From sequence record LC788710.1: DNA of 64,000 nucleotides, one strand, 5' to 3'. Positions 3,862-36,083 of this stretch are shown here, one piece after another; positions within the stretch are counted from its first letter, which is position 1; every line of letters begins with the position of its first letter. The position numbers were made by a program, and so were the translations under genes. The notes beneath the pieces are model-generated. The model had not been told where the DNA came from and did not search any database. It saw nothing but the letters and a program-made list of their open reading frames with translations. The stretch comes from Escherichia coli phage Wa28.

Positions 3862-4056
3862 ATGAGTGATAAAATTGTTGTAACTAAAACTACTGTTACC
3901 GTTGATACTTTCTTTGTGCCTGATACGCTGGAAAATCGGCAAGCGGTGGAGCGTGGCGATTATGATAAAGTGATTTATGATAACGATGGTTACTACCAAC
4001 ATTTGGTAGACTCCTACGGCGAAAGCGAAAAGATCACACATCGACTACCAGACTAA
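3862..4056 (+). CDS. hypothetical protein (64 aa)
   Basis: ORF with CTAGGAGCG leader; terminator follows. Confidence 0.5.
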   Translation: MSDKIVVTKTTVTVDTFFVPDTLENRQAVERGDYDKVIYDNDGYYQHLVDSYGESEKITHRLPD

Positions 4057-4063
4057 TAATAAC

Positions 4064-4090
4064 GGGGCGCAACTATCTGCCCCCTTTTCT
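4064..4090 (+). terminator. rho-independent terminator (GGGGCGCAACTATCTGCCCC + TTTT)
   Basis: Hairpin plus T run just after stop at 4056. Confidence 0.6.
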
Positions 4091-4201
4091 GGCCTCCTCC
4101 AATTTTGCCCTTATTAAAATACCTCCTCCAAAAATAAACGCGTTAGAATGCGTTACAGAGCGTTTAAAGGCTATATTAGATTATTCTCCTACTGGAATAT
4201 A

Positions 4202-4309
4202 CTGTATATTTATACAGTAGAATAACCTGTTAATAAGTCTGTTGATAACGCCTCAAAATCGCTAGGATTTTGTCAAGTCAAATCATGCTGTTAATAAACC
4301 TGTGGATAA
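4202..4309. repeat. Right arm of inverted repeat: LexA-box-like CTGTATATTTATACAG (4202-4217), DnaA-box variants (4240-4248, 4301-4309), TGTCAAGTCAA (4271-4281)
   Basis: Reverse complement matches 112-208. Confidence 0.8.
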
Positions 4310-4319
4310 CTTAAATAGC

Positions 4320-4500
4320 AGTGTTTCTCACTTCCCTTTCTAAATGCGAATCATTATCATTATGCAACTCATTCGCATTCAATTCTGTAAATGATAACCA
4401 TTCTCATTCCACTTTCTAAACGCGAATCATTATCATTCGCATTCAACTTTTTAAATGAGAATCAATCTCATTATCATTCGCATTTCGGCAGGCAGGGCAT
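4320..4500. repeat. AT-rich block of short palindromic/direct repeats (AATGCGAATCATTATCATTCGCATT, AATGAGAATCAATCTCATT)
   Basis: Read directly. Confidence 0.7.
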
Positions 4501-4522
4501 TTTCATTTTGCCCTGCGCTTTT

Positions 4523-5125
4523 GTGCAAATCCGACATTGCTCCACGGGTGTTACGTGCGGGCGTGTATGTGCGAATCCGACAATTTTTGGTAGTGTGCAA
4601 ATCCGATGGGAAATATTTTTATAGTGTGCGAATCCGACAATGAATTTTCCTAAAAACTCCAGCAATCCGCAACTGCGATGCAATCCAGCTGGATTTACTA
4701 GAGTATGTGCAAATCCGACAAGTGTTAAGGTGTGCGAATCCGATAAGATTTTTGTGATTTCGATTGGAGGGTGTGTGATTGTGTGGGTTTGGGGAGAAGT
4801 TGAGAGAGTGAGAGAAAATAAGGGTAGAAACTGGAGTGGGCAGCATGGGTGGCGTGAAACGCCTGGTTTGCTGCGTTTTTGGGGATAATGCGGGATGTTT
4901 TGGCTAGAATTGAGATTAGGGGAGATAAAGCGAAATTTTATTAGCAAAATGGGGCAAAATCGCTTGACAAGTGAAAATTCCTGTGGCTCTAAAAAACTCA
5001 GGCAAATATGGGCCTTCGGCCCGAAATAATGCTGCTATTTTCAGTGTTCCTAAAAACTTTGGAGACTCCTATCAATGTGCAAATCCGACCATAAATTTCT
5101 AGAAACACAGTGTGCAAATCCGATA
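4523..5125 (+). repeat. Eight same-orientation copies of 15-bp motif TGTGC(A/G)AATCCGA(C/T) at 4523, 4568, 4594, 4626, 4706, 4731, 5076, 5111
   Basis: Read directly; irregular spacing; no coding potential beyond repeat-derived ORFs. Confidence 0.85.
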
Positions 5126-5265
5126 GCAATTTCCAGAAATGTGTTTTGGAAAAATGTCTCCTAGAAATAACCGCCCTCCCTATAACCGCCCTGTATTAAA
5201 CCGCCTATTGCTGGAGTTTCTAGGAACATGAAAACCGCCTGAGTTGGCGAGAGTTTTCCTAGAAA
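5094..5265. repeat. Cluster of palindromic TTCCTAGAAA/TTTCTAGGAA motifs and four AACCGCC repeats
   Basis: Read directly. Confidence 0.7.
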
Positions 5266-5490
5266 CTTAGGAGTCTACTAGAAAGTGTTGTGCTATCCTA
5301 GCAGATGAGCGGCAACAGGTGTATCATCTTGAACATTAATTTATCTATTCAACAGTATTAGTTTTTATATAAGTATAAGATCCCCAGGGGATTGTGAGAG
5401 ATGCTCCACCCCTGGGATACGAATTGCGTGAGATGGTACAAAACTTCTGAAGATTTCCCTAGCCCTCCGACAAGCTACGGGGAAATAGAA

Positions 5491-5530
5491 GTTTCCCATC
5501 CACCATCCGTATCCGGGTGGATCTCTTTAT
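5491..5530 (+). terminator. hairpin (ATCCACC..GGTGGAT) followed by T-rich tract
   Basis: Stem-loop then CTCTTTATTCT on plus strand. Confidence 0.4.
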
Positions 5531-5551
5531 TCTATGTTATTTCATAGAGTT

Positions 5552-5580
5552 ATTATAACATGCAGAAATCATAACGTCAA
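5552..5580 (-). promoter_or_regulatory. sigma70-like promoter (TTGACG-17-TATAAT) firing leftward into the repeat locus
   Basis: Reverse complement gives TTGACGTTATGATTTCTGCATGTTATAAT. Confidence 0.5.
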
Positions 5581-5587
5581 GTAGAGT

Positions 5588-6478
5588 TTATTCATCGAAC
5601 ATGAGATTTCCTTTCATCCCCATCTCCGCATACTCCATGAGTTCTCCTAGGGATCTCACAGGGTAATCTACTTTACTGAAGTTATCATAGATCTTACATG
5701 AACTCTCGTACAACTCGTTAGGTATCTGCAATTTGTTATCAGTTAGCTTCTCATAACGTGTAGAAGATTTTGTACCTTCAAACAGAACTGCAATAACTGC
5801 GGCGATTTGTTTGGTAAGATCATCTGCTCCTAGAATTATTCTATTAATAGCAATCGTTACTTCATGCTTAGGTTTCACAGGTGGAAGGATAGGCTTGAGA
5901 TCCTTAGGTAAAGGTTCTGTTCCTAGGAATCCTTCTTTTGTGCGGAACCAATAATTATCTAGATCAGATATTGTCTTAGACTTATTCCATATAGTGAAGC
6001 AAGGTTTATTTCCTTCACGATCTCTGTATTCACGAACTGGAAGATAATGATCAGGGAATGAGTTGAGTGCATCATGCATTGGTGAGCCTGTCTTTTTAAA
6101 TGACAAACCGTACAACTCATTATAATTCATAACTTCATCTTCATAAACATGGAAATCTTTATATGCTGGAAGATTAAACCATTCCTGAAGTGAATGAACT
6201 GCAAAACGTTGTGCCCAAGCATGCATCACAAGAACTCTGTACTCTTTTACTTCATCTTTTGGAGAAGTACCTCTAACTGTTCTAGCTGACCGAATACAGA
6301 ACATCTCAACAACACGTCTCTCGTTTAAAGAAAGCTCAGAGTAACAACGTTCATGGCAACCTTCTAGCATTTCTAGAAGTTCACGTAGTTTCTCTACATC
6401 GACCGGTGGAAAAGGTCTCTCTTCCACCGCGAATTTACCAACTACACCTTTCGGCTTTCTATTACTATAAAATCCCAT
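5588..6478 (-). CDS. hypothetical protein (296 aa)
   Basis: Long ORF, first gene of leftward train. Confidence 0.6.
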   Translation of the reverse strand: MGFYSNRKPKGVVGKFAVEERPFPPVDVEKLRELLEMLEGCHERCYSELSLNERRVVEMFCIRSARTVRGTSPKDEVKEYRVLVMHAWAQRFAVHSLQEWFNLPAYKDFHVYEDEVMNYNELYGLSFKKTGSPMHDALNSFPDHYLPVREYRDREGNKPCFTIWNKSKTISDLDNYWFRTKEGFLGTEPLPKDLKPILPPVKPKHEVTIAINRIILGADDLTKQIAAVIAVLFEGTKSSTRYEKLTDNKLQIPNELYESSCKIYDNFSKVDYPVRSLGELMEYAEMGMKGNLMFDE

Positions 6479-7089
6479 TAACGACCTCTAGCCTTATCTG
6501 CATCAATAGCTTCGAATACTTTCGTTAACATTTCTTCAAGCTCACCTTCTTTGCTAGGATTGCTCAAACGAATAGTATATGAGTTCCTAGAAACTCCTGA
6601 GTCTTCTTGTGCTCCGCGATCTTTTGCAAAGCCCATCATTGCAACGCCAGCTTTATTCCACTCGTCTACGCTAGATGCTTCCCCAAATTTATATGATTGC
6701 GTATTGCTTACCACGCCACCACAAGGAACATTGTGCATATCCGACATTAATCTTTTATCGGAATTATTCAGCATTGCGATTGGTCCCGACTGCCACGGAT
6801 CTCGAATAGTCACTGGAGTACTCGGGCGGTTCACTTCAGTCTTCACGAGTTTGTATCCAGCATCGATTAGTGCATTAATCAGATTATCAGCCGGGATACG
6901 AGCCGTGCCAAAGATAGCACGAGCATTCATAAGCTTAGCCTGAAATTCCTTGCAACCTTGAAGATCAGTGTGCAAAAACGACAGTTGCATAGATTTAAAC
7001 TGTACTGTAGCAGTCAGATCTTTAAAGCTGTAATCCCATGTGTCGAGTTCATGATCTGCAACTACTTTAATGGTTTGTTGTGTAAACAT
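6478..7089 (-). CDS. hypothetical protein (203 aa)
   Basis: ORF, start/stop overlap with neighbours. Confidence 0.6.
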   Translation of the reverse strand: MFTQQTIKVVADHELDTWDYSFKDLTATVQFKSMQLSFLHTDLQGCKEFQAKLMNARAIFGTARIPADNLINALIDAGYKLVKTEVNRPSTPVTIRDPWQSGPIAMLNNSDKRLMSDMHNVPCGGVVSNTQSYKFGEASSVDEWNKAGVAMMGFAKDRGAQEDSGVSRNSYTIRLSNPSKEGELEEMLTKVFEAIDADKARGR

Positions 7090-8734: not shown

Positions 8735-9164
8735 TTAAGGCCATATCAGCGGTTTCCAGAAGAGATTCAGTAATCTCACGAGAAACTAGATATTCATCAA
8801 TTGAGTGGCGGCGTTTGCAGGCATAAGCATTAACAATCAGATCTAGAGCACCAAGAACATCATGAATAGTTACTTCTTCATCCTTGTCTAACTCTTCTTT
8901 GGTAATCTCAATTAACTGGCCAACTGCCATTAAAAGCCCAAGAATATCTGCTGTTTCGCCTGCCACCAGCGGATTAGCACATCCTACTGTAAGATCGAAA
9001 GCATGATTGACAATTGACTGCCCATCAACGCTTCCTTCCTCAATCTGCTTCTCCAACTGCTTCATCTGCTCTAGCACTGGATTTTTCTTTTGTGTCATGG
9101 TAAAGATTTCCTGTATCAGTTGGAAGGAATGCCGATTGTGCCTTCGGCGGATGTTGTTTAGCAA
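8715..9164 (-). CDS. hypothetical protein (start probably internal, about 9098)
   Basis: ORF; overlaps next ORF. Confidence 0.45.
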   Translation of the reverse strand: MLNNIRRRHNRHSFQLIQEIFTMTQKKNPVLEQMKQLEKQIEEGSVDGQSIVNHAFDLTVGCANPLVAGETADILGLLMAVGQLIEITKEELDKDEEVTIHDVLGALDLIVNAYACKRRHSIDEYLVSREITESLLETADMALNGKQLH

Positions 9165-9507
9165 TCCAGTTGAGGATCAGTACACGGCTAGGAACGATAT
9201 CGGTATTATACCAGAAATCATGAACCCAATGTCGTGCATTTTCAAACTTACCGAACTTATACGCTTTCTTGAACAGCTCAAAACCAAAACAGTCAGGTGC
9301 AAAATCTACATCACGATAAGGAATTACCTTAGATCCGGTGAGATCTTGAATCGCTGCGTTAATCTCTGTATGCGAGAACTTCGTTTCATGGAAAGTATTA
9401 AAGAAGCGGTAATTAAAACGTCCGTTCGTTTCGACAAACAACTGGATGAATAAATCATTAAATTGGCCATCAAACCAGTAATTCTGTAATCTTTGCAGTG
9501 CTGTCAT
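9040..9507 (-). CDS. hypothetical protein (155 aa)
   Basis: ORF. Confidence 0.5.
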   Translation of the reverse strand: MTALQRLQNYWFDGQFNDLFIQLFVETNGRFNYRFFNTFHETKFSHTEINAAIQDLTGSKVIPYRDVDFAPDCFGFELFKKAYKFGKFENARHWVHDFWYNTDIVPSRVLILNWIAKQHPPKAQSAFLPTDTGNLYHDTKEKSSARADEAVGEAD

Positions 9508-9704
9508 TTACGAACCCCATTTATTGCTGCGATAACGCCTTCATACATGAAAGGAAGAACTTGTGAAATGTGGAAATCTTGGACTGTCCAACCAGCTTCT
9601 TGATACATAATGTTAATGATTGCACAACTTAACATAAAAGCTGGTAGAATTATAAAGTAATCCCACGTTGCTTTCTGCAAGTTAGGGTTATAAAAATTAA
9701 TCAT
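9504..9704 (-). CDS. small membrane protein (66 aa)
   Basis: ORF, hydrophobic. Confidence 0.4.
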   Translation of the reverse strand: MINFYNPNLQKATWDYFIILPAFMLSCAIINIMYQEAGWTVQDFHISQVLPFMYEGVIAAINGVRK

Positions 9705-9804
9705 CTGTTTTTAAGTCTCCGTATTACTTTGGCCTGCTCAACGATTATGAAAGCGGCAACCACTAAACCGAAGATTAGGATTGCCGTAACAGTTGTTAAA
9801 TCAA

Positions 9805-10137
9805 TCAAGGCAGACGCCAAATATAATGGGCTGTCCAAAGTGTTTCTGGTTCATCGTCATGATGCATCACTAGGGACTCTGGAGAATAACTATTAGCCAG
9901 TTCTTTACGAACCATCTCACGTTCTTCGCCAGTTTCAATATTTTTAACAATCACTTTCATATTAAGAGGAGTTAGCTCAGAAAGTGGTCGCCATAAGTCT
10001 TCCAGATCTGTTTTAGTTTTATTCTGGATGGATTGCAAGACTTCTAGTGTCTGAGGATCTACATTAATAAACCCACGTTCAGTAACAAAACCTAGAAACT
10101 CGTCCAGCAGGGTTAATTCACTAAAATTAAGCTTCAT
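9805..10137 (-). CDS. hypothetical protein (110 aa)
   Basis: ORF. Confidence 0.5.
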   Translation of the reverse strand: MKLNFSELTLLDEFLGFVTERGFINVDPQTLEVLQSIQNKTKTDLEDLWRPLSELTPLNMKVIVKNIETGEEREMVRKELANSYSPESLVMHHDDEPETLWTAHYIWRLP

Positions 10138-10372
10138 CTTTCAGAATATCCTCGATCATGTCAGAAGATTGCTGTAGTTCGTCTACAATGCGTTTAACGT
10201 CAGTTTTTGTCACTTTACAGGCCAACATCGTGAACAGCATTGCAACGATGATGATAGGAACTGGCAGAACAAACAGTGCTACTTTAGCAACGTTCTTCGG
10301 GGTCCAGGTATGATACTTAGTAACCAGAACACCAACAATAACCAGATAAAAAGCTAAGATAATTAACATCAT
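10127..10372 (-). CDS. membrane protein (81 aa)
   Basis: ORF, two hydrophobic segments. Confidence 0.45.
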   Translation of the reverse strand: MMLIILAFYLVIVGVLVTKYHTWTPKNVAKVALFVLPVPIIIVAMLFTMLACKVTKTDVKRIVDELQQSSDMIEDILKDEA

Positions 10373-10650
10373 TTCTTAATCTCCGTGATTACCTGAGCGC
10401 GCAGGACTTTAATAGGAAGTTTAGTGTTACCAACAAGAGTTTCAATATTCGTTAGCTTTTCTTTAAGAAGATCTGAGCGTCTTTGTGCTAATTCGATATC
10501 TTCTTCCTGTTCAACGAGACGTTTAACTAGCCCATCATTGGTGAGGCGCATCCTATCCATATTTTTATTAGCATTAATAATGCCAATGATTCCACCAATT
10601 GCTGCTAAAGTCGTGAGAACCAGTAATCCAATTAAAATTTCTGTTATCAT
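10369..10650 (-). CDS. membrane-anchored coiled-coil protein (93 aa)
   Basis: ORF. Confidence 0.45.
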   Translation of the reverse strand: MITEILIGLLVLTTLAAIGGIIGIINANKNMDRMRLTNDGLVKRLVEQEEDIELAQRRSDLLKEKLTNIETLVGNTKLPIKVLRAQVITEIKK

Positions 10651-11902: not shown

Positions 11903-12334
11903 TTACCAATCGTTAACGAAACCTGAGAACTCAGAAGCAAAGACTAACTCAAATTTCTCAGCAATTTCAGGATGATCTTTACAGATCAGTTCAATGCACT
12001 TCTCAGGTTCCATACCATCTTCTTCAGGATCACCGTAATACTTGTCCCAAAGATCATCAGGAATAACTTGCTCAGCTAGATCTTGGAAGTTCACTAACTG
12101 ATAGCGTGGAGTATCCTCATTAATAAAGATCTCATGCAATTCCTCAGATACTTCTCCCTTATAATCGGAAATTAGCAGAGCATTGCAAGCAAAACATTCC
12201 CACATCATCAAACGCTCAGAAATCGGGTTCGATTTGTCTTGAACATAGGACTGAAAGACTGCCTTAAAAGTAGCTTTAACTTGCTCAAACTTATCTGCTG
12301 TTGCGATTAAAAGTGCTTTATCAATCTTTTGCAT
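11903..12334 (-). CDS. hypothetical protein (143 aa)
   Basis: ORF downstream of promoter. Confidence 0.55.
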   Translation of the reverse strand: MQKIDKALLIATADKFEQVKATFKAVFQSYVQDKSNPISERLMMWECFACNALLISDYKGEVSEELHEIFINEDTPRYQLVNFQDLAEQVIPDDLWDKYYGDPEEDGMEPEKCIELICKDHPEIAEKFELVFASEFSGFVNDW

Positions 12335-12364
12335 TTTGATTCCTTCTCATCAATTTATAAAGTA

Positions 12365-12393
12365 ATTATACAGAAAACTAAGCATTTTAGCAA
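12365..12393 (-). promoter_or_regulatory. early promoter TTGCTAA-17-TATAAT
   Basis: Motif read. Confidence 0.65.
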
Positions 12394-12399
12394 ATGAAG

Positions 12400-12428
12400 T
12401 TTTAAAATAAAAGGCCTAAGCCTAGGCC
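12400..12428 (-). terminator. rho-independent terminator (GGCCTAAGCCTAGGCC + U run on minus)
   Basis: Hairpin preceded on plus by A run. Confidence 0.6.
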
Positions 12429-12495
12429 CGTAAAGAAAGAGATAAGAACTACTATCCCTATTGCTATAAATATCTCACGAGCCATGCCATCAAAA

Positions 12496-13086
12496 TCAAA
12501 CATTGATATCTCCCCTCAATACCGCTGCCACATCTTCATCGATTTGGAGTATTTCACCAGTAGTGCAGTTAACCACTTTATCATAGCTTGTGAACTTGCC
12601 AGACACAATATCCTCTAGAGGAATAGGAGTCTTGCTCATCTCAAAAGAGACGTTGATATAACGTGGGTCACGCACAGAATTGGTGTGCACATGTCCGTGA
12701 ATGTTTAGCTTACCACGAAGTTCTGCTTCGTGCAATGGACAATGTGACAGCCAAAACTTCTTGCCACCACCTGTTTGCTTACCTAGAGCCTGAATATCAT
12801 CATAAACGTCTACAAGATCTTTAATACGCAGACCCTGACGTTCAGCATCGTGGTTGCCCATGATTAATTGGTTAGGCACATTGTAGATAACCGACTTCAA
12901 TTTAGCCAACCCTTCACGCCCCACGGCAATATCTCCTAGCAATACAAGTTTTGTACGCTTGCCAATGTGCTTGGACAAAGTATCTAGGATATATTCATCG
13001 TGCTCTTTCCTGTTCTTAAACCACGGACGGAAGCGAAGAGTTCCAGGATGGTCTAGGTGCAAATCCGACCAGAATTTAACTTTCAT
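12496..13086 (-). CDS. calcineurin-like metallophosphoesterase
   Basis: SDLHLD, GDIAVG, GNHD motifs. Confidence 0.7.
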   Translation of the reverse strand: MKVKFWSDLHLDHPGTLRFRPWFKNRKEHDEYILDTLSKHIGKRTKLVLLGDIAVGREGLAKLKSVIYNVPNQLIMGNHDAERQGLRIKDLVDVYDDIQALGKQTGGGKKFWLSHCPLHEAELRGKLNIHGHVHTNSVRDPRYINVSFEMSKTPIPLEDIVSGKFTSYDKVVNCTTGEILQIDEDVAAVLRGDINV

Positions 13087-13292
13087 TACTTATTCCTTAC
13101 ACAAGTTGAGGTAATAGTATAACTATCGTAGAATATACCTTTTGTGAGTCCAATTTGGATGCTGGAATTATCCAGCTTACCTCCAGCTACGTCACACAAG
13201 TGTCTAGTATCTTCTGCGGTGAATCTCATACTATTATCATAAGGATCACATCCAGCTAGTATTAGTACTGATACTAGTAGTAATCTCTTCAT
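13086..13292 (-). CDS. putative lipoprotein (68 aa)
   Basis: Signal peptide with LAGC lipobox. Confidence 0.5.
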   Translation of the reverse strand: MKRLLLVSVLILAGCDPYDNSMRFTAEDTRHLCDVAGGKLDNSSIQIGLTKGIFYDSYTITSTCVRNK

Positions 13293-13660
13293 TACAGAAC
13301 TTCCTCCGCATATTTATTCCAACCCTGACAATAACTACTAATACCACGAAGTTTGAATATTTCATCATAAACCTCATGGTGCTCTTTTGCTTCTTGATAT
13401 CCTTTGTCAAGTTCTTCTTGTCGTGCTTGCTCAAAATCAACACGATTCTCTAGCATTTTCCAGACTTTTTCATACTCTGGCCAGTCATGCTCTACCACAA
13501 CGGTTTTGAGATCCTCTTTTCCACGTTGTGCTCGACTATACCACAGTTTGGATAAGATATGTTCCAAAGTGGTAAAGTTGCTTTGAGTGATATGCCCTAA
13601 TTCTAGGGCTTTCTCAATATCAGACAACTTTATAACTACATAACGTTCTTCACGTTCCAT
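13292..13660 (-). CDS. hypothetical protein (122 aa)
   Basis: ORF. Confidence 0.55.
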   Translation of the reverse strand: MEREERYVVIKLSDIEKALELGHITQSNFTTLEHILSKLWYSRAQRGKEDLKTVVVEHDWPEYEKVWKMLENRVDFEQARQEELDKGYQEAKEHHEVYDEIFKLRGISSYCQGWNKYAEEVL

Positions 13661-14523
13661 TATAGAATCCTCTGTACACCACAGCTATCATTTTTATCTG
13701 TGGTAAATGTCAAGATCTTACCAGCTTCATCATTAACTTGCGCAACCGTCAACTGCCCGTTGAAAACACCGCCAGTATCGAGATAAACACGGTTCTTGTA
13801 CAGAATTGGGTAAGGAACACCAGTGTGGCCATGGAATACGAAATCTACACTTTCAACTTCTGGCACTTCCACAGTCAGTTCATCTTTAAATCCTGCATAA
13901 CGCTGGAAATAGGGGTGCTCTGCACCTTGCTTAGACAGATGAAAACCAATTTCCTGAATTACATCACGATCCCATAGATATGGCTCAATGTAATAACTAG
14001 GATGATCATTAGGATCATTTTCACTTGCAGCGATATGATCAATAATATCATCCCAATTAGGTGTATGTACATCGAATCCCGCATCTTTATACTGGAATGG
14101 TATTCCACCATGAACAACACCATATTTCTTGCCACGATGGAGTACAGTCATGAATACTGGCATTTTAACTGCCATATCTTCTGCGATACCTTTAATTGTA
14201 TCGGTATCTAGATCATTCATTGCCCACATTCCACCATTATACATCCAGTTGGCGTAGTCACCAGCAATCATAAACTGATCATGGTTGCCACGAACGCTGC
14301 GGAAGCGTGGGTTATATAAGAATTTGGCTAGAACCTGTAAGTTCTGCGGGCCACGGTCAATTAAGTCGCCAACACAGACAACATAGTCACGCTTCTCTTT
14401 ATATCCTGCTAGTTTAAGAGCATCTTCCAGCATATCATTACAGCCGTGAATATCTCCTACGAAGAACAGGTTAACATCGTCTGGTACTACTAACATTTCA
14501 TGCAGGTTAAATTCTTTTTTCAT
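13660..14523 (-). CDS. Ser/Thr protein phosphatase (PPP family)
   Basis: GDIHG, GDLIDRG, GNHD motifs. Confidence 0.8.
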   Translation of the reverse strand: MKKEFNLHEMLVVPDDVNLFFVGDIHGCNDMLEDALKLAGYKEKRDYVVCVGDLIDRGPQNLQVLAKFLYNPRFRSVRGNHDQFMIAGDYANWMYNGGMWAMNDLDTDTIKGIAEDMAVKMPVFMTVLHRGKKYGVVHGGIPFQYKDAGFDVHTPNWDDIIDHIAASENDPNDHPSYYIEPYLWDRDVIQEIGFHLSKQGAEHPYFQRYAGFKDELTVEVPEVESVDFVFHGHTGVPYPILYKNRVYLDTGGVFNGQLTVAQVNDEAGKILTFTTDKNDSCGVQRIL

Positions 14524-14554
14524 TATCTGGTTCCTTTCTCAAGTTTATAGGTAT

Positions 14555-14583
14555 ATTATATCAAAATTTTAAGCGTTTAGCAA
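14555..14583 (-). promoter_or_regulatory. early promoter TTGCTAA-17-TATAAT
   Basis: Motif read. Confidence 0.65.
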
Positions 14584-17721: not shown

Positions 17722-18474
17722 TTATCCAACTAGTGGTTCTAGCTCTAAGTCACAGAAGTGGTACACATCGGTACGAAGTGCATCAAGTCCGTTGAAGGTA
17801 TTCTCAAATTTATGAGAAATATATTTTTCAGGAATACCGCTTTCAGACGGATGATCTGTCTCGATGCGATACTTATTAGTAATACCAGATTCAACCTTAA
17901 TAAGCATGGAATCCATATCTAGAGTATTGGTTTCCATGATTAGTTCTCCCTCATTGGGGAAACGCACATCGGTAACGATTGCGACGTCTGGGTCGTCTTT
18001 ATCGATGGATTGCTCCAGAATTATGAGCCAAATGCGTTCATGCACCAGCTGCCTTCCTAACTCAGTACCTACAAGCTGTAGCATTTTTCTTGGGGAGATA
18101 AATACGCTATACAGCGCATCATCAGCTTGCCCAATTAACTGCTGAGGATCAAGGTATTTTCCTTCAAATATCGGCCAAACGTACGAGAAGTCCTCAAACT
18201 TATCGATACCATACTTAAACCATACGTCTCTAGCTCGCTCCAATTGAGATTGTGTGACTGTAAACCATTGGTCAATCTCTTTTCCCCTGCGCTCTCCCAG
18301 AAACTCTGGAGTTACCCCGAGGATTACGGATGCAAGTTCGTAAACGGGTTTAGCAAAACTGTAACGACGGGATAAACACGTTGGGAACGTGTCATTACAC
18401 CAGTCAATCATTAATTCTGCAACGGTATCTTTTCCCGCACCAGCCTCACCATGTAAACCGACTAATACTGACAT
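17722..18474 (-). CDS. deoxynucleoside monophosphate kinase
   Basis: P-loop GEAGAGKDT close to N-terminus, as in T4 dNMP kinase. Confidence 0.65.
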   Translation of the reverse strand: MSVLVGLHGEAGAGKDTVAELMIDWCNDTFPTCLSRRYSFAKPVYELASVILGVTPEFLGERRGKEIDQWFTVTQSQLERARDVWFKYGIDKFEDFSYVWPIFEGKYLDPQQLIGQADDALYSVFISPRKMLQLVGTELGRQLVHERIWLIILEQSIDKDDPDVAIVTDVRFPNEGELIMETNTLDMDSMLIKVESGITNKYRIETDHPSESGIPEKYISHKFENTFNGLDALRTDVYHFCDLELEPLVG

Positions 18475-36024: not shown

Positions 36025-36059
36025 CAGAAAAGCCCGCGCTCTCGGAGGAAACGCGGGCT
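36025..36059 (-). terminator. rho-independent terminator (GCCCGCG..CGCGGGC)
   Basis: 7-bp GC stem with A run on plus. Confidence 0.7.
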
Positions 36060-36083
36060 TGGTTCGAAGATTACGTGTAACTA

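What the first reader, a model, noticed from the sequence alone, without database searches (positions are those of the whole stretch)
13057..13070. Isolated ninth copy of the GTGCAAATCCGAC motif inside the start of the metallophosphoesterase gene
An exact 13-mer match to the repeat-locus motif lies 8 kb away, overlapping the first codons of CDS 12496..13086. A chance match of this length is very unlikely in 64 kb, so the same DNA-binding factor may also act at this gene.
Basis: seen in the sequence. Interest (0 to 1): 0.45.

Follow-up and report, generated by a model that had tools for sequence, protein, structure and literature searches.

The report
Stray T5 repeat copy inside phosphoesterase codons
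An exact extra copy of the 13-base repeat that marks the DNA-injection-stop region of T5-like phages really does sit in the first codons of a phosphoesterase gene, but it coincides with the codons for that enzyme's invariant metal-binding signature and drifts away at the neutral rate in related phages, so in this phage it looks like an inherited relic, not a maintained control site.

Summary
GTGCAAATCCGAC lies at 13057-13069 (+). It is the only exact copy outside the 8-copy array at 4523-5124. Chance expects about 0.001-0.02 such copies.

The window is a T5-like phage (Epseptimavirus, closest to Shin27). The array is the known "DRD" direct-repeat set of the T5 injection-stop / terminal-repeat-end region, and its function is unknown.

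The stray copy is the reverse complement of (TG)G TCG GAT TTG CAC, which encodes W-S-D-L-H, motif I (DxH) of the metallophosphoesterase. This peptide is invariant in homologues, including about 30 metagenomic ones without DRD arrays.

- **Distribution:** 9 of 26 distinct alleles of this gene branch carry the exact 13-mer. T5-type alleles encode the same peptide with other codons.
- **No constraint in this genus:** on a tree of 24 Epseptimavirus alleles the exact state appears ancestral. Its synonymous sites change as fast as control sites (2.5 vs 2.39 changes per site).
- **Context:** the copy sits mid-operon with no promoter nearby, and it has G at position -1 where array copies have T (98 of 105) and never G.
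- **Unexplained twist:** Pectobacterium phage My1 (44% protein identity, synonymous sites saturated) has the same exact 13-mer at the same codons (P about 0.001).

A dispensable functional satellite is therefore not excluded. Most likely it is a neutral relic.

The parts
13057..13069 (+). Isolated exact copy of the DRD core GTGCAAATCCGAC. It is the reverse complement of G-TCG-GAT-TTG-CAC, i.e. the third base of Trp6 plus Ser7-Asp8-Leu9-His10 of the phosphoesterase.
   Evidence: The flanks are tagGTGC...GACcagaattt. Position -1 is G, whereas array copies have T in 98 of 105 and G in 0 of 105.
12496..13086 (-). Metallophosphoesterase gene (196 aa, homologue of T5.034). Motifs are SDLHLDH, LLGD, GNHDAE and HGHVH. 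It is the last gene of a four-gene early operon.
   Evidence: Pfam Metallophos 21.8 bits (cut-off 21.5) and Metallophos_2 E=2.6e-5. PHROG 547 phosphoesterase, E=1.4e-55. PDB 1xm7 aligns FWSDLHLDH with FISDTHFYH.
12412..14583 (-). Transcription unit that contains the site. A promoter-like TTGCTA-17-TATAAT lies at 14583-14555. The genes are 14523-13660, 13660-13292, 13292-13086 and 13086-12496, with overlapping stops and starts. A terminator-like hairpin lies at 12429-12412.
   Evidence: No promoter-like site above chance lies next to 13057.
4523..4744 (+). DRD array, copies 1-6 (4523, 4569, 4595, 4626, 4707, 4732). By homology to T5 they lie inside the left terminal repeat.
   Evidence: T5 carries 9 copies at 9753-10490 inside and next to its annotated injection stop signal. 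The T5 repeat end at 10219 maps to window position 4989.
5077..5124 (+). DRD array, copies 7-8 (5077, 5112), just right of the inferred terminal-repeat end. Copy 7 shares 15 nt (GTGCAAATCCGACCA) with the phosphoesterase copy.
6733..6745 (+). Second off-array DRD-like copy, GTGCATATCCGAC, inside CDS 6478-7089(-) (T5.019 homologue, PHROG 5271, unknown function). It reads S-D-M-H in the same frame and orientation.
   Evidence: It is present at this position in all but one of 29 homologues, and is exact in T5. Codons TCG GAT xTG CAC AAT GTT are invariant.
4511..4555 (+). Homologue of the T5 7.9% single-strand nick site (CCCTGCGC | ... GTTACG). The nick maps to 4518/4519 on the minus strand, 4 nt left of DRD copy 1.
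   Evidence: T5 annotation, mapping, and the consensus seen at all T5 nicks.

Best explanation
The 13-mer is a real extra copy of the DRD repeat core of T5-like phages, but it exists as coding sequence. On the gene's strand it reads (TG)G TCG GAT TTG CAC, which encodes Trp-Ser-Asp-Leu-His. This is the invariant N-terminal signature (metal-binding motif I, DxH) of this phage metallophosphoesterase family.

The peptide fixes 8 of the 13 bases. The other 5 are synonymous positions. The exact DRD spelling was already present in the ancestor of the 'WSDLHLDHP' branch of the gene. In the window's genus it has since been lost repeatedly, at the ordinary synonymous substitution rate.

In this phage it is therefore most likely an inherited relic or look-alike. 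It is not under selection as a DNA site and has no maintained regulatory role at the gene.

- **Shown:** the identity of the site, the coding overlap, non-conservation, the neutral rate, and the operon context.
- **Inferred:** the real DRD array works as a set of cooperative binding sites for a conserved, still unidentified protein at the injection-stop / terminal-repeat end. The pre-early DNA-binding protein A2 is a guess. A solitary copy with the wrong -1 base would at most be bound weakly and opportunistically.
For: 1. Coding identity. The site covers codons 6-10, WSDLH. Pfam, PHROG and PDB matches place D8 and H10 in motif I.
2. The peptide is a family signature independent of DRD. WSDLHL[GD]H occurs in about 30 metagenomic homologues whose loci hold no DRD copy, with all kinds of codons (0 exact, two with 1 mismatch). 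All 15 IMG/VR T5-type alleles and T5 itself use TGG AGY GAY CTM CAY, at least 5 mismatches.
3. There is no DNA-level constraint in this genus. Among 18 full-length alleles there are 6 spellings, 7 of the 13 positions vary, and nucleotide diversity is 0.188 against 0.134 for the whole gene.
4. With 26 distinct alleles, 9 are exact.
5. Fitch parsimony on a neighbour-joining tree of 24 Epseptimavirus alleles gives 3, 4, 1 and 2 third-position changes at the S, D, L and H codons (mean 2.5). The mean for 129 control codons is 2.39. The exact state is scattered across the deep branches and has been lost at least 4 times. Some losses are Asp-to-Glu changes, and one is a 6-mismatch micro-patch resembling the T5-type allele.
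6. The true repeat is a 14-mer, T-GTGCRAATCCGAY. Here position -1 is G, which never occurs in 105 distinct array copies. The Leu11 codon (CTA/TTA) forces G or A there.
7. The copy is isolated, whereas array copies sit 25-46 bp apart. It lies mid-operon with no adjacent promoter.
8. Matches to array copies extend only 2 nt beyond the core, so there is no sign of a recent long conversion tract.
Against: - Pure chance is very unlikely: 0.0006-0.0014 expected. The spelling uses the phage's rarest Ser codon (TCG, 4.6%) and a rare Leu codon (TTG, 11%).
- Pectobacterium phage My1 belongs to another subfamily and its MPE protein is 44% identical. It carries the same exact 13-mer at the same codons. 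Outside the motif, its codon identity to Epseptimavirus alleles equals the codon-usage expectation (32 observed vs 27.9 +/- 4), so synonymous sites are saturated. P(exact in My1) is 0.0012. Its sister phage DU_PP_V is one mismatch away.
- T5-like genomes hold other exact off-array copies in coding DNA, in the T5.019 homologue and in D13. All are in the array's orientation, against 0.003-0.007 expected per genome.
- The T5.019 copy shows synonymous invariance.
- On the wide position matrix the site scores within the range of array members.

Together these points suggest that something more than drift (past selection or homogenisation) created or kept the spelling at some time.
Confidence: 0.55

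Rival explanations
1. Genuine but dispensable satellite DRD site. The protein that recognises the array also binds this solitary copy. The site is ancient (shared with My1-like phages) and served some role, for example a secondary pause, anchor or loop point for DNA transfer or end processing, or a roadblock in the early operon. In T5/Epseptimavirus phages it became redundant, perhaps because the conserved copy in the T5.019 homologue took over, and it now decays.
For: - The exact 13-mer occurs at homologous codons in My1 despite saturated synonymous divergence, P about 0.001.
- My1's copy matches its own array member over 18 nt, including the -1 A that is typical of My1 arrays.
- The orientation is the same as the array in every genome.
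- DRD arrays with the same core are conserved in non-coding DNA across at least 5 lineages: T5, Epseptimavirus, My1, DU_PP_V, Klebsiella IME260/Sugarland-like and Eos. This implies a conserved binding partner.
- The T5.019 copy has invariant rare-codon spelling in 29 homologues.
- My1 has no T5.019 homologue in its first 25 kb.
Against: - Substitution at the free positions runs at the neutral rate within Epseptimavirus, and the site was lost at least 4 times.
- It is absent from all T5-type alleles.
- Position -1 is G in the window, which is never seen in 105 array copies.
- The site is isolated and lies inside an operon.
- No binding protein is known and no function has been proposed for DRD in the papers read.
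- Only two My1-type genomes are available.
Confidence: 0.25
2. Homogenisation. The 9-18 array copies per replicating genome act as templates for short-patch conversion or templated mutation of the near-identical WSDLH coding stretch. This repeatedly resets the stretch to the exact DRD spelling in lineages whose codons are already close (TCR GAY TTR CAC). No selection for function is involved.
For: - It explains the recurrence in My1 and in Epseptimavirus together with neutral decay.
- It explains why alleles with distant codons (AGY..CTC) never show the motif.
- Micro-mosaic exchange at exactly this spot is documented. The L002/fuchur/EscoHU1 alleles differ from the window by 6 of 13 bases here but by only 28 bases in the remaining 578, and they resemble the T5-type allele.
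- The D13 copy shares a 15-nt stretch, including 5 flank bases, with array copy 7 of Shin27 and the window.
Against: - The shared identity with array copies is only 13-18 nt, very short for recombination.
- There is no extended conversion tract.
- The Epseptimavirus tree needs no re-gain events.
- The mechanism is not documented for T5.
Confidence: 0.1
3. RNA-level pairing. Read-through transcripts of the array (+ strand, downstream of the pre-early genes) carry 8-9 copies of GUGCAAAUCCGAC. This is complementary to codons 6-10 of the phosphoesterase mRNA and to the T5.019-homologue mRNA, giving antisense control of these early messages.
For: - Both window copies outside the array (13057 and 6733) lie in minus-strand genes, so their mRNAs are complementary to a + strand array transcript.
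- The phosphoesterase copy lies close to the start codon.
Against: - There is no evidence that the array is transcribed. T5 annotates a terminator upstream of it.
- The D13 copies are in the sense orientation.
- The site shows neutral decay.
- This reading is purely speculative.
Confidence: 0.03

Closest known systems
DRD direct repeats of phage T5 Repeat Region 3 (injection-stop-signal region at the end of the left terminal repeat). Davison, bioRxiv 10.1101/866236, lists 'nine copies of direct repeat DRD'. The NC_005859 annotation marks the 'injection stop signal (iss)' at 9140-10149.
   Same: The 13-base core is identical, the strand is the same as the array, and there is a T-rich stretch at +18 to +20. 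T5 has 9 copies with this core at 9753-10490.
   Different: - It is solitary and lies 8 kb from the array.
- It is inside a coding sequence.
- Position -1 is G instead of the near-invariant T.
- It is not conserved among relatives, whereas array copies are conserved from T5 to My1.
- The function of DRD itself is unknown.
Motif I (D-x-H) of calcineurin-like metallophosphoesterases (Pfam PF00149 / PF12850); T5 gene T5.034 'phosphoesterase'
   Same: The 13 bases encode S-D-L-H, with D8 and H10 at the motif I positions. The peptide WSDLHL[GD]H is invariant in T5-type, Epseptimavirus-type, My1-type and metagenomic homologues.
   Different: The family definition says nothing about codon choice. The unusual point is only that the rare-codon spelling TCG GAT TTG CAC equals the DRD core.
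Iteron arrays with solitary outlying iteron-like sites (plasmid and phage replication or partition control). This comparison comes from general knowledge and was not tested here.
   Same: There is an array of 8-9 same-orientation 13-14-bp repeats next to DnaA boxes (4227-4310), plus isolated copies elsewhere. Outlying single sites in such systems can be bound by the same protein.
   Different: - No Rep-like binding protein has been identified.
- According to the Davison preprint, T5 origins map near the genome centre.
- This outlying copy lies in a coding region, not at a promoter, and evolves neutrally.

Membership tests
T5 DRD repeat family | Core sequence GTGCRAATCCGAY | tested here: met
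   Exact GTGCAAATCCGAC at 13057-13069.
T5 DRD repeat family | T immediately 5' of the core (the repeat is really a 14-mer) | tested here: not met
   T occurs at -1 in 98 of 105 distinct array copies from 28 genomes, and G in 0 of 105. The window copy has G, forced by the Leu11 codon.
T5 DRD repeat family | Same strand as the array | tested here: met
   All copies in the window, T5, Shin27 and My1 are on the array strand.
T5 DRD repeat family | Clustered (25-46 bp apart, with one long gap across the repeat end) in the non-coding region that spans the terminal-repeat end | tested here: not met
   The copy is solitary, 7.9 kb from copy 8, and lies inside CDS 12496-13086.
T5 DRD repeat family | Conserved among relatives at the DNA level | tested here: not met
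   9 of 26 distinct alleles are exact. Free positions change at 2.5 vs 2.39 changes per site. The site is absent from T5-type alleles. One exception is unexplained: the copy is exact in My1.
T5 DRD repeat family | Bound by the DRD-recognising factor | not testable with these tools
   No factor is known. This needs EMSA, ChIP or a footprint.
Calcineurin-like metallophosphoesterase (host gene) | Motifs DxH, GD, GNH[DE], H, GHxH and a Pfam match | tested here: met
   SDLH, LLGD, GNHDAE and HGHVH are in the translation. PF00149 scores 21.8 bits against a 21.5 cut-off, and PF12850 scores 24.7 against 27. PHROG 547, E=1.4e-55. 1xm7 alignment.
Operator / transcription-factor site at a promoter | Position overlapping or next to a promoter of the regulated gene | tested here: not met
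   The operon promoter-like site is at 14583-14555. Only chance-level promoter matches occur in the scanned region around 13057 (11 found vs 7.6 +/- 2.7 expected).

The most novel reading that the evidence does not exclude
DRD is a family-wide cis element of Demerecviridae. Besides the array at the injection-stop / terminal-repeat end, it keeps single 'satellite' copies written into the codons of early genes: the phosphoesterase in My1-like and some Epseptimavirus phages, and the T5.019 homologue in T5/Epseptimavirus. The same protein would touch the incoming or replicating genome at these points, for example as secondary checkpoints of two-step DNA transfer. On this reading the window's copy is a genuine, though now redundant, member.
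Probability: 0.2. Interest if true: 0.6.

Novelty: new member of a known kind. Interest (0 to 1): 0.3.

Why it matters
For this window it mostly removes a false lead. The match should not be annotated as a regulatory site of the phosphoesterase gene.

The wider interest is modest but real. The DRD repeats belong to the injection-stop region of T5, whose mechanism has been open since the 1980s.

- This work shows that the 14-bp core is conserved across subfamilies (T5, Epseptimavirus, My1, DU_PP_V, Klebsiella and Eos phages).
- It also shows that exact copies recur inside coding sequences far more often than chance allows.
- That gives a precise oligonucleotide, plus natural 'mutant' sites, with which to fish for the binding protein and to test whether solitary copies matter.

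Tried and rejected
- **Nick-site component: rejected.** T5's four annotated nicks share CCYGCGC plus RTTACR about 31 nt further on. The window has exactly three such sites (4512, 18286, 36033), and only the first contains a DRD.
- **Covariation test: impossible.** I looked for relatives with a different array motif whose gene copy follows it. The core is the same even in My1, the Klebsiella phages and Eos.
- **Long conversion tract from an array copy: not found.** Matches extend only 0-5 nt beyond the core.
- **Residual shared ancestry as the reason for the My1 match: rejected.** Outside the motif, codon identity equals the codon-usage expectation.
- **D13 copies as evidence of selection: uninformative.** The gene is 97% conserved, 45% of its third positions are invariant, and invariant runs of 29 nt occur elsewhere in it.
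- **Compensation between the T5.019 copy and the phosphoesterase copy across genomes: no pattern**.
- **Wasted fetch.** The first 30 kb of Vibrio phage pVp-1 were fetched to look for its array, but the record is permuted and the stretch was not analysed further.
- **Low-yield searches.** The degenerate-pattern scan of IMG/VR found only contigs already in hand. BLAST with the My1 array was too insensitive to list all DRD-bearing phages.
- **Literature.** The papers read give no function or binding protein for DRD. Wang et al. 2005 and Heusterspreute et al. 1987 are not in the searchable library.

Full report
**What the window is**

The region around the finding is 100% identical over 1.1 kb to E. 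coli phage Shin27. It is 80-99% identical to hundreds of Salmonella and Escherichia T5-like phages (Demerecviridae; Epseptimavirus and Tequintavirus).

The repeat locus at about 4050-5590 matches the same phages. [quoted passage not shown]

Davison's preprint (10.1101/866236) calls this 'Repeat Region 3'. [quoted passage not shown]

T5 has nine copies of GTGCRAATCCGAY at 9753-10490. The window has eight, at 4523-5124.

By alignment to T5:
- The 7.9% single-strand nick maps to 4518/4519, 4 nt left of copy 1.
- The terminal-repeat end maps to about 4989.
- Copies 1-6 therefore lie inside the repeat and copies 7-8 just outside it.

**The observation**

The exact 13-mer is at 13057-13069 on the + strand. 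It is the only exact off-array copy in the 64 kb.

The expected number is essentially zero:
- 0.00 in shuffles.
- 0.0005-0.004 under Markov models.
- 0.0014 given the encoded proteins and codon usage.

About five single chance events occur (2.8 expected). A chance hit on one of the roughly eight 'core' 13-mers therefore has probability of about 0.02 at most.

**What the bases are**

The CDS 12496-13086(-) encodes a 196-aa calcineurin-like metallophosphoesterase. Evidence is the Pfam matches, PHROG 547 and the closest solved relative, 1xm7.

Read on the gene's strand, the 13-mer is G TCG GAT TTG CAC. That is the last base of Trp6 followed by Ser7-Asp8-Leu9-His10, the D-x-H metal-binding motif I.

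The gene is the last of four translationally coupled genes. They lie between a strong promoter-like site (14583-14555) and a terminator-like hairpin (12429-12412). Nothing promoter-like beyond chance lies near the site.

**The peptide is older and wider than the repeat**

WSDLHL[GD]H is found in all three branches of the gene:
- T5's own gene T5.034, MKVCFWSDLHLGH.
- The Epseptimavirus-type gene.
- The My1-type gene.

It also occurs in about 30 diverse metagenomic homologues whose loci contain no DRD copy. Those homologues spell SDLH in many ways. None is exact and two are one mismatch away. Multiplying their codon frequencies gives 0.004.

All 15 IMG/VR T5-type alleles, and T5 itself, use AGY GAY CTM CAY, at least 5 mismatches. 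The protein therefore fixes 8 of the 13 bases, and the match depends on five synonymous positions.

**Conservation test in the window's genus**

Eighteen full-length alleles show six spellings:
- Exact in the window, Shin27, 100268_sal2, S126 and S130/S131 (the L005 contig).
- TCA GAT, one mismatch.
- TCG GAG, which changes Asp to Glu.
- TCA GAC TTG CAC/T, 2-3 mismatches.
- AGT GAA CTC CAC, 6 mismatches.

Seven of the 13 positions vary. Nucleotide diversity is 0.188 against 0.134 for the gene as a whole.

Adding GSW6, RN29, STWB21 and UTK0009 (all exact) and Ob_P (GAG) gives 26 distinct alleles, of which 9 are exact.

I built a neighbour-joining tree of the 24 Epseptimavirus alleles from the gene without the motif. 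On this tree the exact state is scattered across the deep branches and is best read as ancestral. It was lost at least four times. Third-position changes at the four codons are 3, 4, 1 and 2 (mean 2.5), against 2.39 for 129 control codons. There is thus no detectable purifying selection on the DNA spelling in this genus.

The L002/fuchur/EscoHU1 alleles differ from the window at 6 of these 13 bases but at only 28 of the other 578. They resemble the T5-type spelling. This looks like a micro-mosaic patch.

**How good a DRD is it?**

I built a position matrix from 222 array copies (105 distinct) in 28 genomes. It shows a 14-base core with T at -1 in 98 of 105 copies and G in none.

The window copy has G there, and the Leu11 codon allows only G or A. 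On the 14-mer the copy scores 20.2, below the window's array copies (23.6-27.1). On a wider matrix that includes the T-rich +18 to +20 positions it scores 28.5, within their range.

**What argues against 'just a look-alike'**

1. Pectobacterium phage My1 (subfamily Mccorquodalevirinae) has the same array, nine copies spanning its terminal-repeat end at 12854. It also has one off-array copy in its first 25 kb. That copy is exact and lies at codons 7-11 of its phosphoesterase: MTKVLVWSDLH, TGG TCG GAT TTG CAC.
2. The two proteins are 44% identical. Outside the motif, codon identity at identical residues equals what My1's codon usage predicts (32 vs 27.9 +/- 4), and rare codons are shared 0-1 times. 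Synonymous sites are therefore saturated.
3. Given My1's codon usage, the probability of this spelling is 0.0012. Its relative DU_PP_V is one mismatch away.
4. Whole-genome scans of T5 and Shin27 find further off-array copies, all on the array strand. One is in the T5.019 homologue (exact in T5; 6733 in the window with one mismatch). A tandem pair lies in D13 (VQILQ-VQIRQ). Against 0.003-0.007 expected per genome this is an excess.
5. The T5.019 copy keeps TCG GAT xTG CAC AAT GTT unchanged in 29 homologues of a protein that is otherwise 56-85% identical. By permutation, a run of five invariant codons somewhere in the gene has P=0.09, and invariance of the three pre-specified motif codons has P about 0.02.
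6. Its common A-to-T variant is a legitimate array variant in DU_PP_V and the Klebsiella phages.
7. The D13 pair is uninformative because that gene is 97% conserved.

**Weighing**

The My1 recurrence and the other coding-embedded copies mean that pure drift is not a complete account of how the spelling arose.

I therefore commit to the following reading: an inherited copy, written into a peptide-constrained scaffold, that is now a neutral relic in this phage (0.55).

| Rival reading | Confidence | Note |
|---|---|---|
| Dispensable functional satellite, ancient and made redundant by the T5.019 copy in Markadamsvirinae | 0.25 | |
| Short-patch homogenisation from the many array copies | 0.10 | |
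| Antisense RNA pairing with an array transcript | 0.03 | |

**Mechanism of the repeat family itself (inference only)**

The array consists of same-orientation 14-bp repeats, conserved across subfamilies in non-coding DNA. It starts at the FST shear point and straddles the terminal-repeat end. This looks like a set of cooperative binding sites for a conserved protein involved in the injection stop or in end formation. A lone copy with an atypical -1 base would be at best a weak site.

**Novelty and score**

The DRD family is known. This copy is a new, previously unremarked member of it and has no demonstrated function. Interest is 0.3.

Noticed in passing
window 6733-6745 (+), inside CDS 6478-7089 (-): A second off-array DRD-like copy, GTGCATATCCGAC, lies in the T5.019 homologue (PHROG 5271, unknown function). 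It reads S-D-M-H in the same frame and orientation as the phosphoesterase copy. It is present at this position in all but one of 29 homologues and is exact in T5. Codons TCG GAT xTG CAC AAT GTT are invariant although the protein is only 56-85% conserved. This is a better candidate for a functional satellite than 13057.
   Followed up: partly
T5 NC_005859 78936-78963; Shin27 109247-109274 (outside the window): A tandem pair of DRD cores, GTGCAAATCCTACAG-GTGCAAATCCGAC, lies in the sense strand of D13 (SbcC-like) and encodes VQILQ-VQIRQ. The second copy is exact in 27 of 28 T5/Epseptimavirus genomes. The pair is absent from the My1 and DU_PP_V D13 genes. It lies about 370 bp from the 64.8% nick.
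   Followed up: partly
window 4512-4555, 18286-18328, 36033-36075 (+): There are exactly three matches to a bipartite pattern, CCYGCGC-N(25-36)-RTTACR, which is shared by all four annotated major nick sites of T5. They correspond to the 7.9%, 18.5% and 32.6% nicks. The second half-site, about 31 nt from the nick, is not part of the annotated consensus (NPu pGCGCN).
   Followed up: partly
window 4227-4249 and 4288-4310: Two pairs of DnaA-box-like 9-mers are each separated by 3 bp: TGTTAATAA gtc TGTTGATAA and TGTTAATAA acc TGTGGATAA. This matches Davison's description of the T5 iss region. Their inverted-repeat partner lies at about 109-195 in the window.
   Followed up: no
L002, L091 (fuchur), L092 (EscoHU1), L093 (Ace), L094 (SP76), L202 (Ob_P): codon 8 of the phosphoesterase: Several phages have Glu (GAA/GAG) in place of the motif I metal-binding Asp (SELH instead of SDLH). 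This suggests either tolerance at this position or loss of catalytic activity.
   Followed up: no
L002 / L091 / L092, codons 7-17 of the phosphoesterase: A micro-mosaic patch is present. These alleles differ from the window at 6 of 13 bases in the motif but are about 95% identical elsewhere. In the patch they resemble the T5-type allele (AGT GAN CTC CAC ... ATT). This is evidence for very short recombination tracts between homeologous alleles.
   Followed up: partly
L095 (My1) 12357-13285; L144/L150/L153 (Klebsiella IME260/Sugarland-like); L149 (DU_PP_V); L159 (phage Eos) 18704-20166: The DRD core is conserved in the arrays of distant Demerecviridae that infect Pectobacterium and Klebsiella. 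In My1 the array again straddles the terminal-repeat end. In Eos, two DRD-like copies lie inside the 3' end of gene Eos44.
   Followed up: partly
window 4050-5590 vs 12300-13400: The window is 100% identical to Shin27 around the phosphoesterase but only 93.6% identical in the injection-stop region. The genome is therefore mosaic relative to its closest sequenced relative.
   Followed up: no
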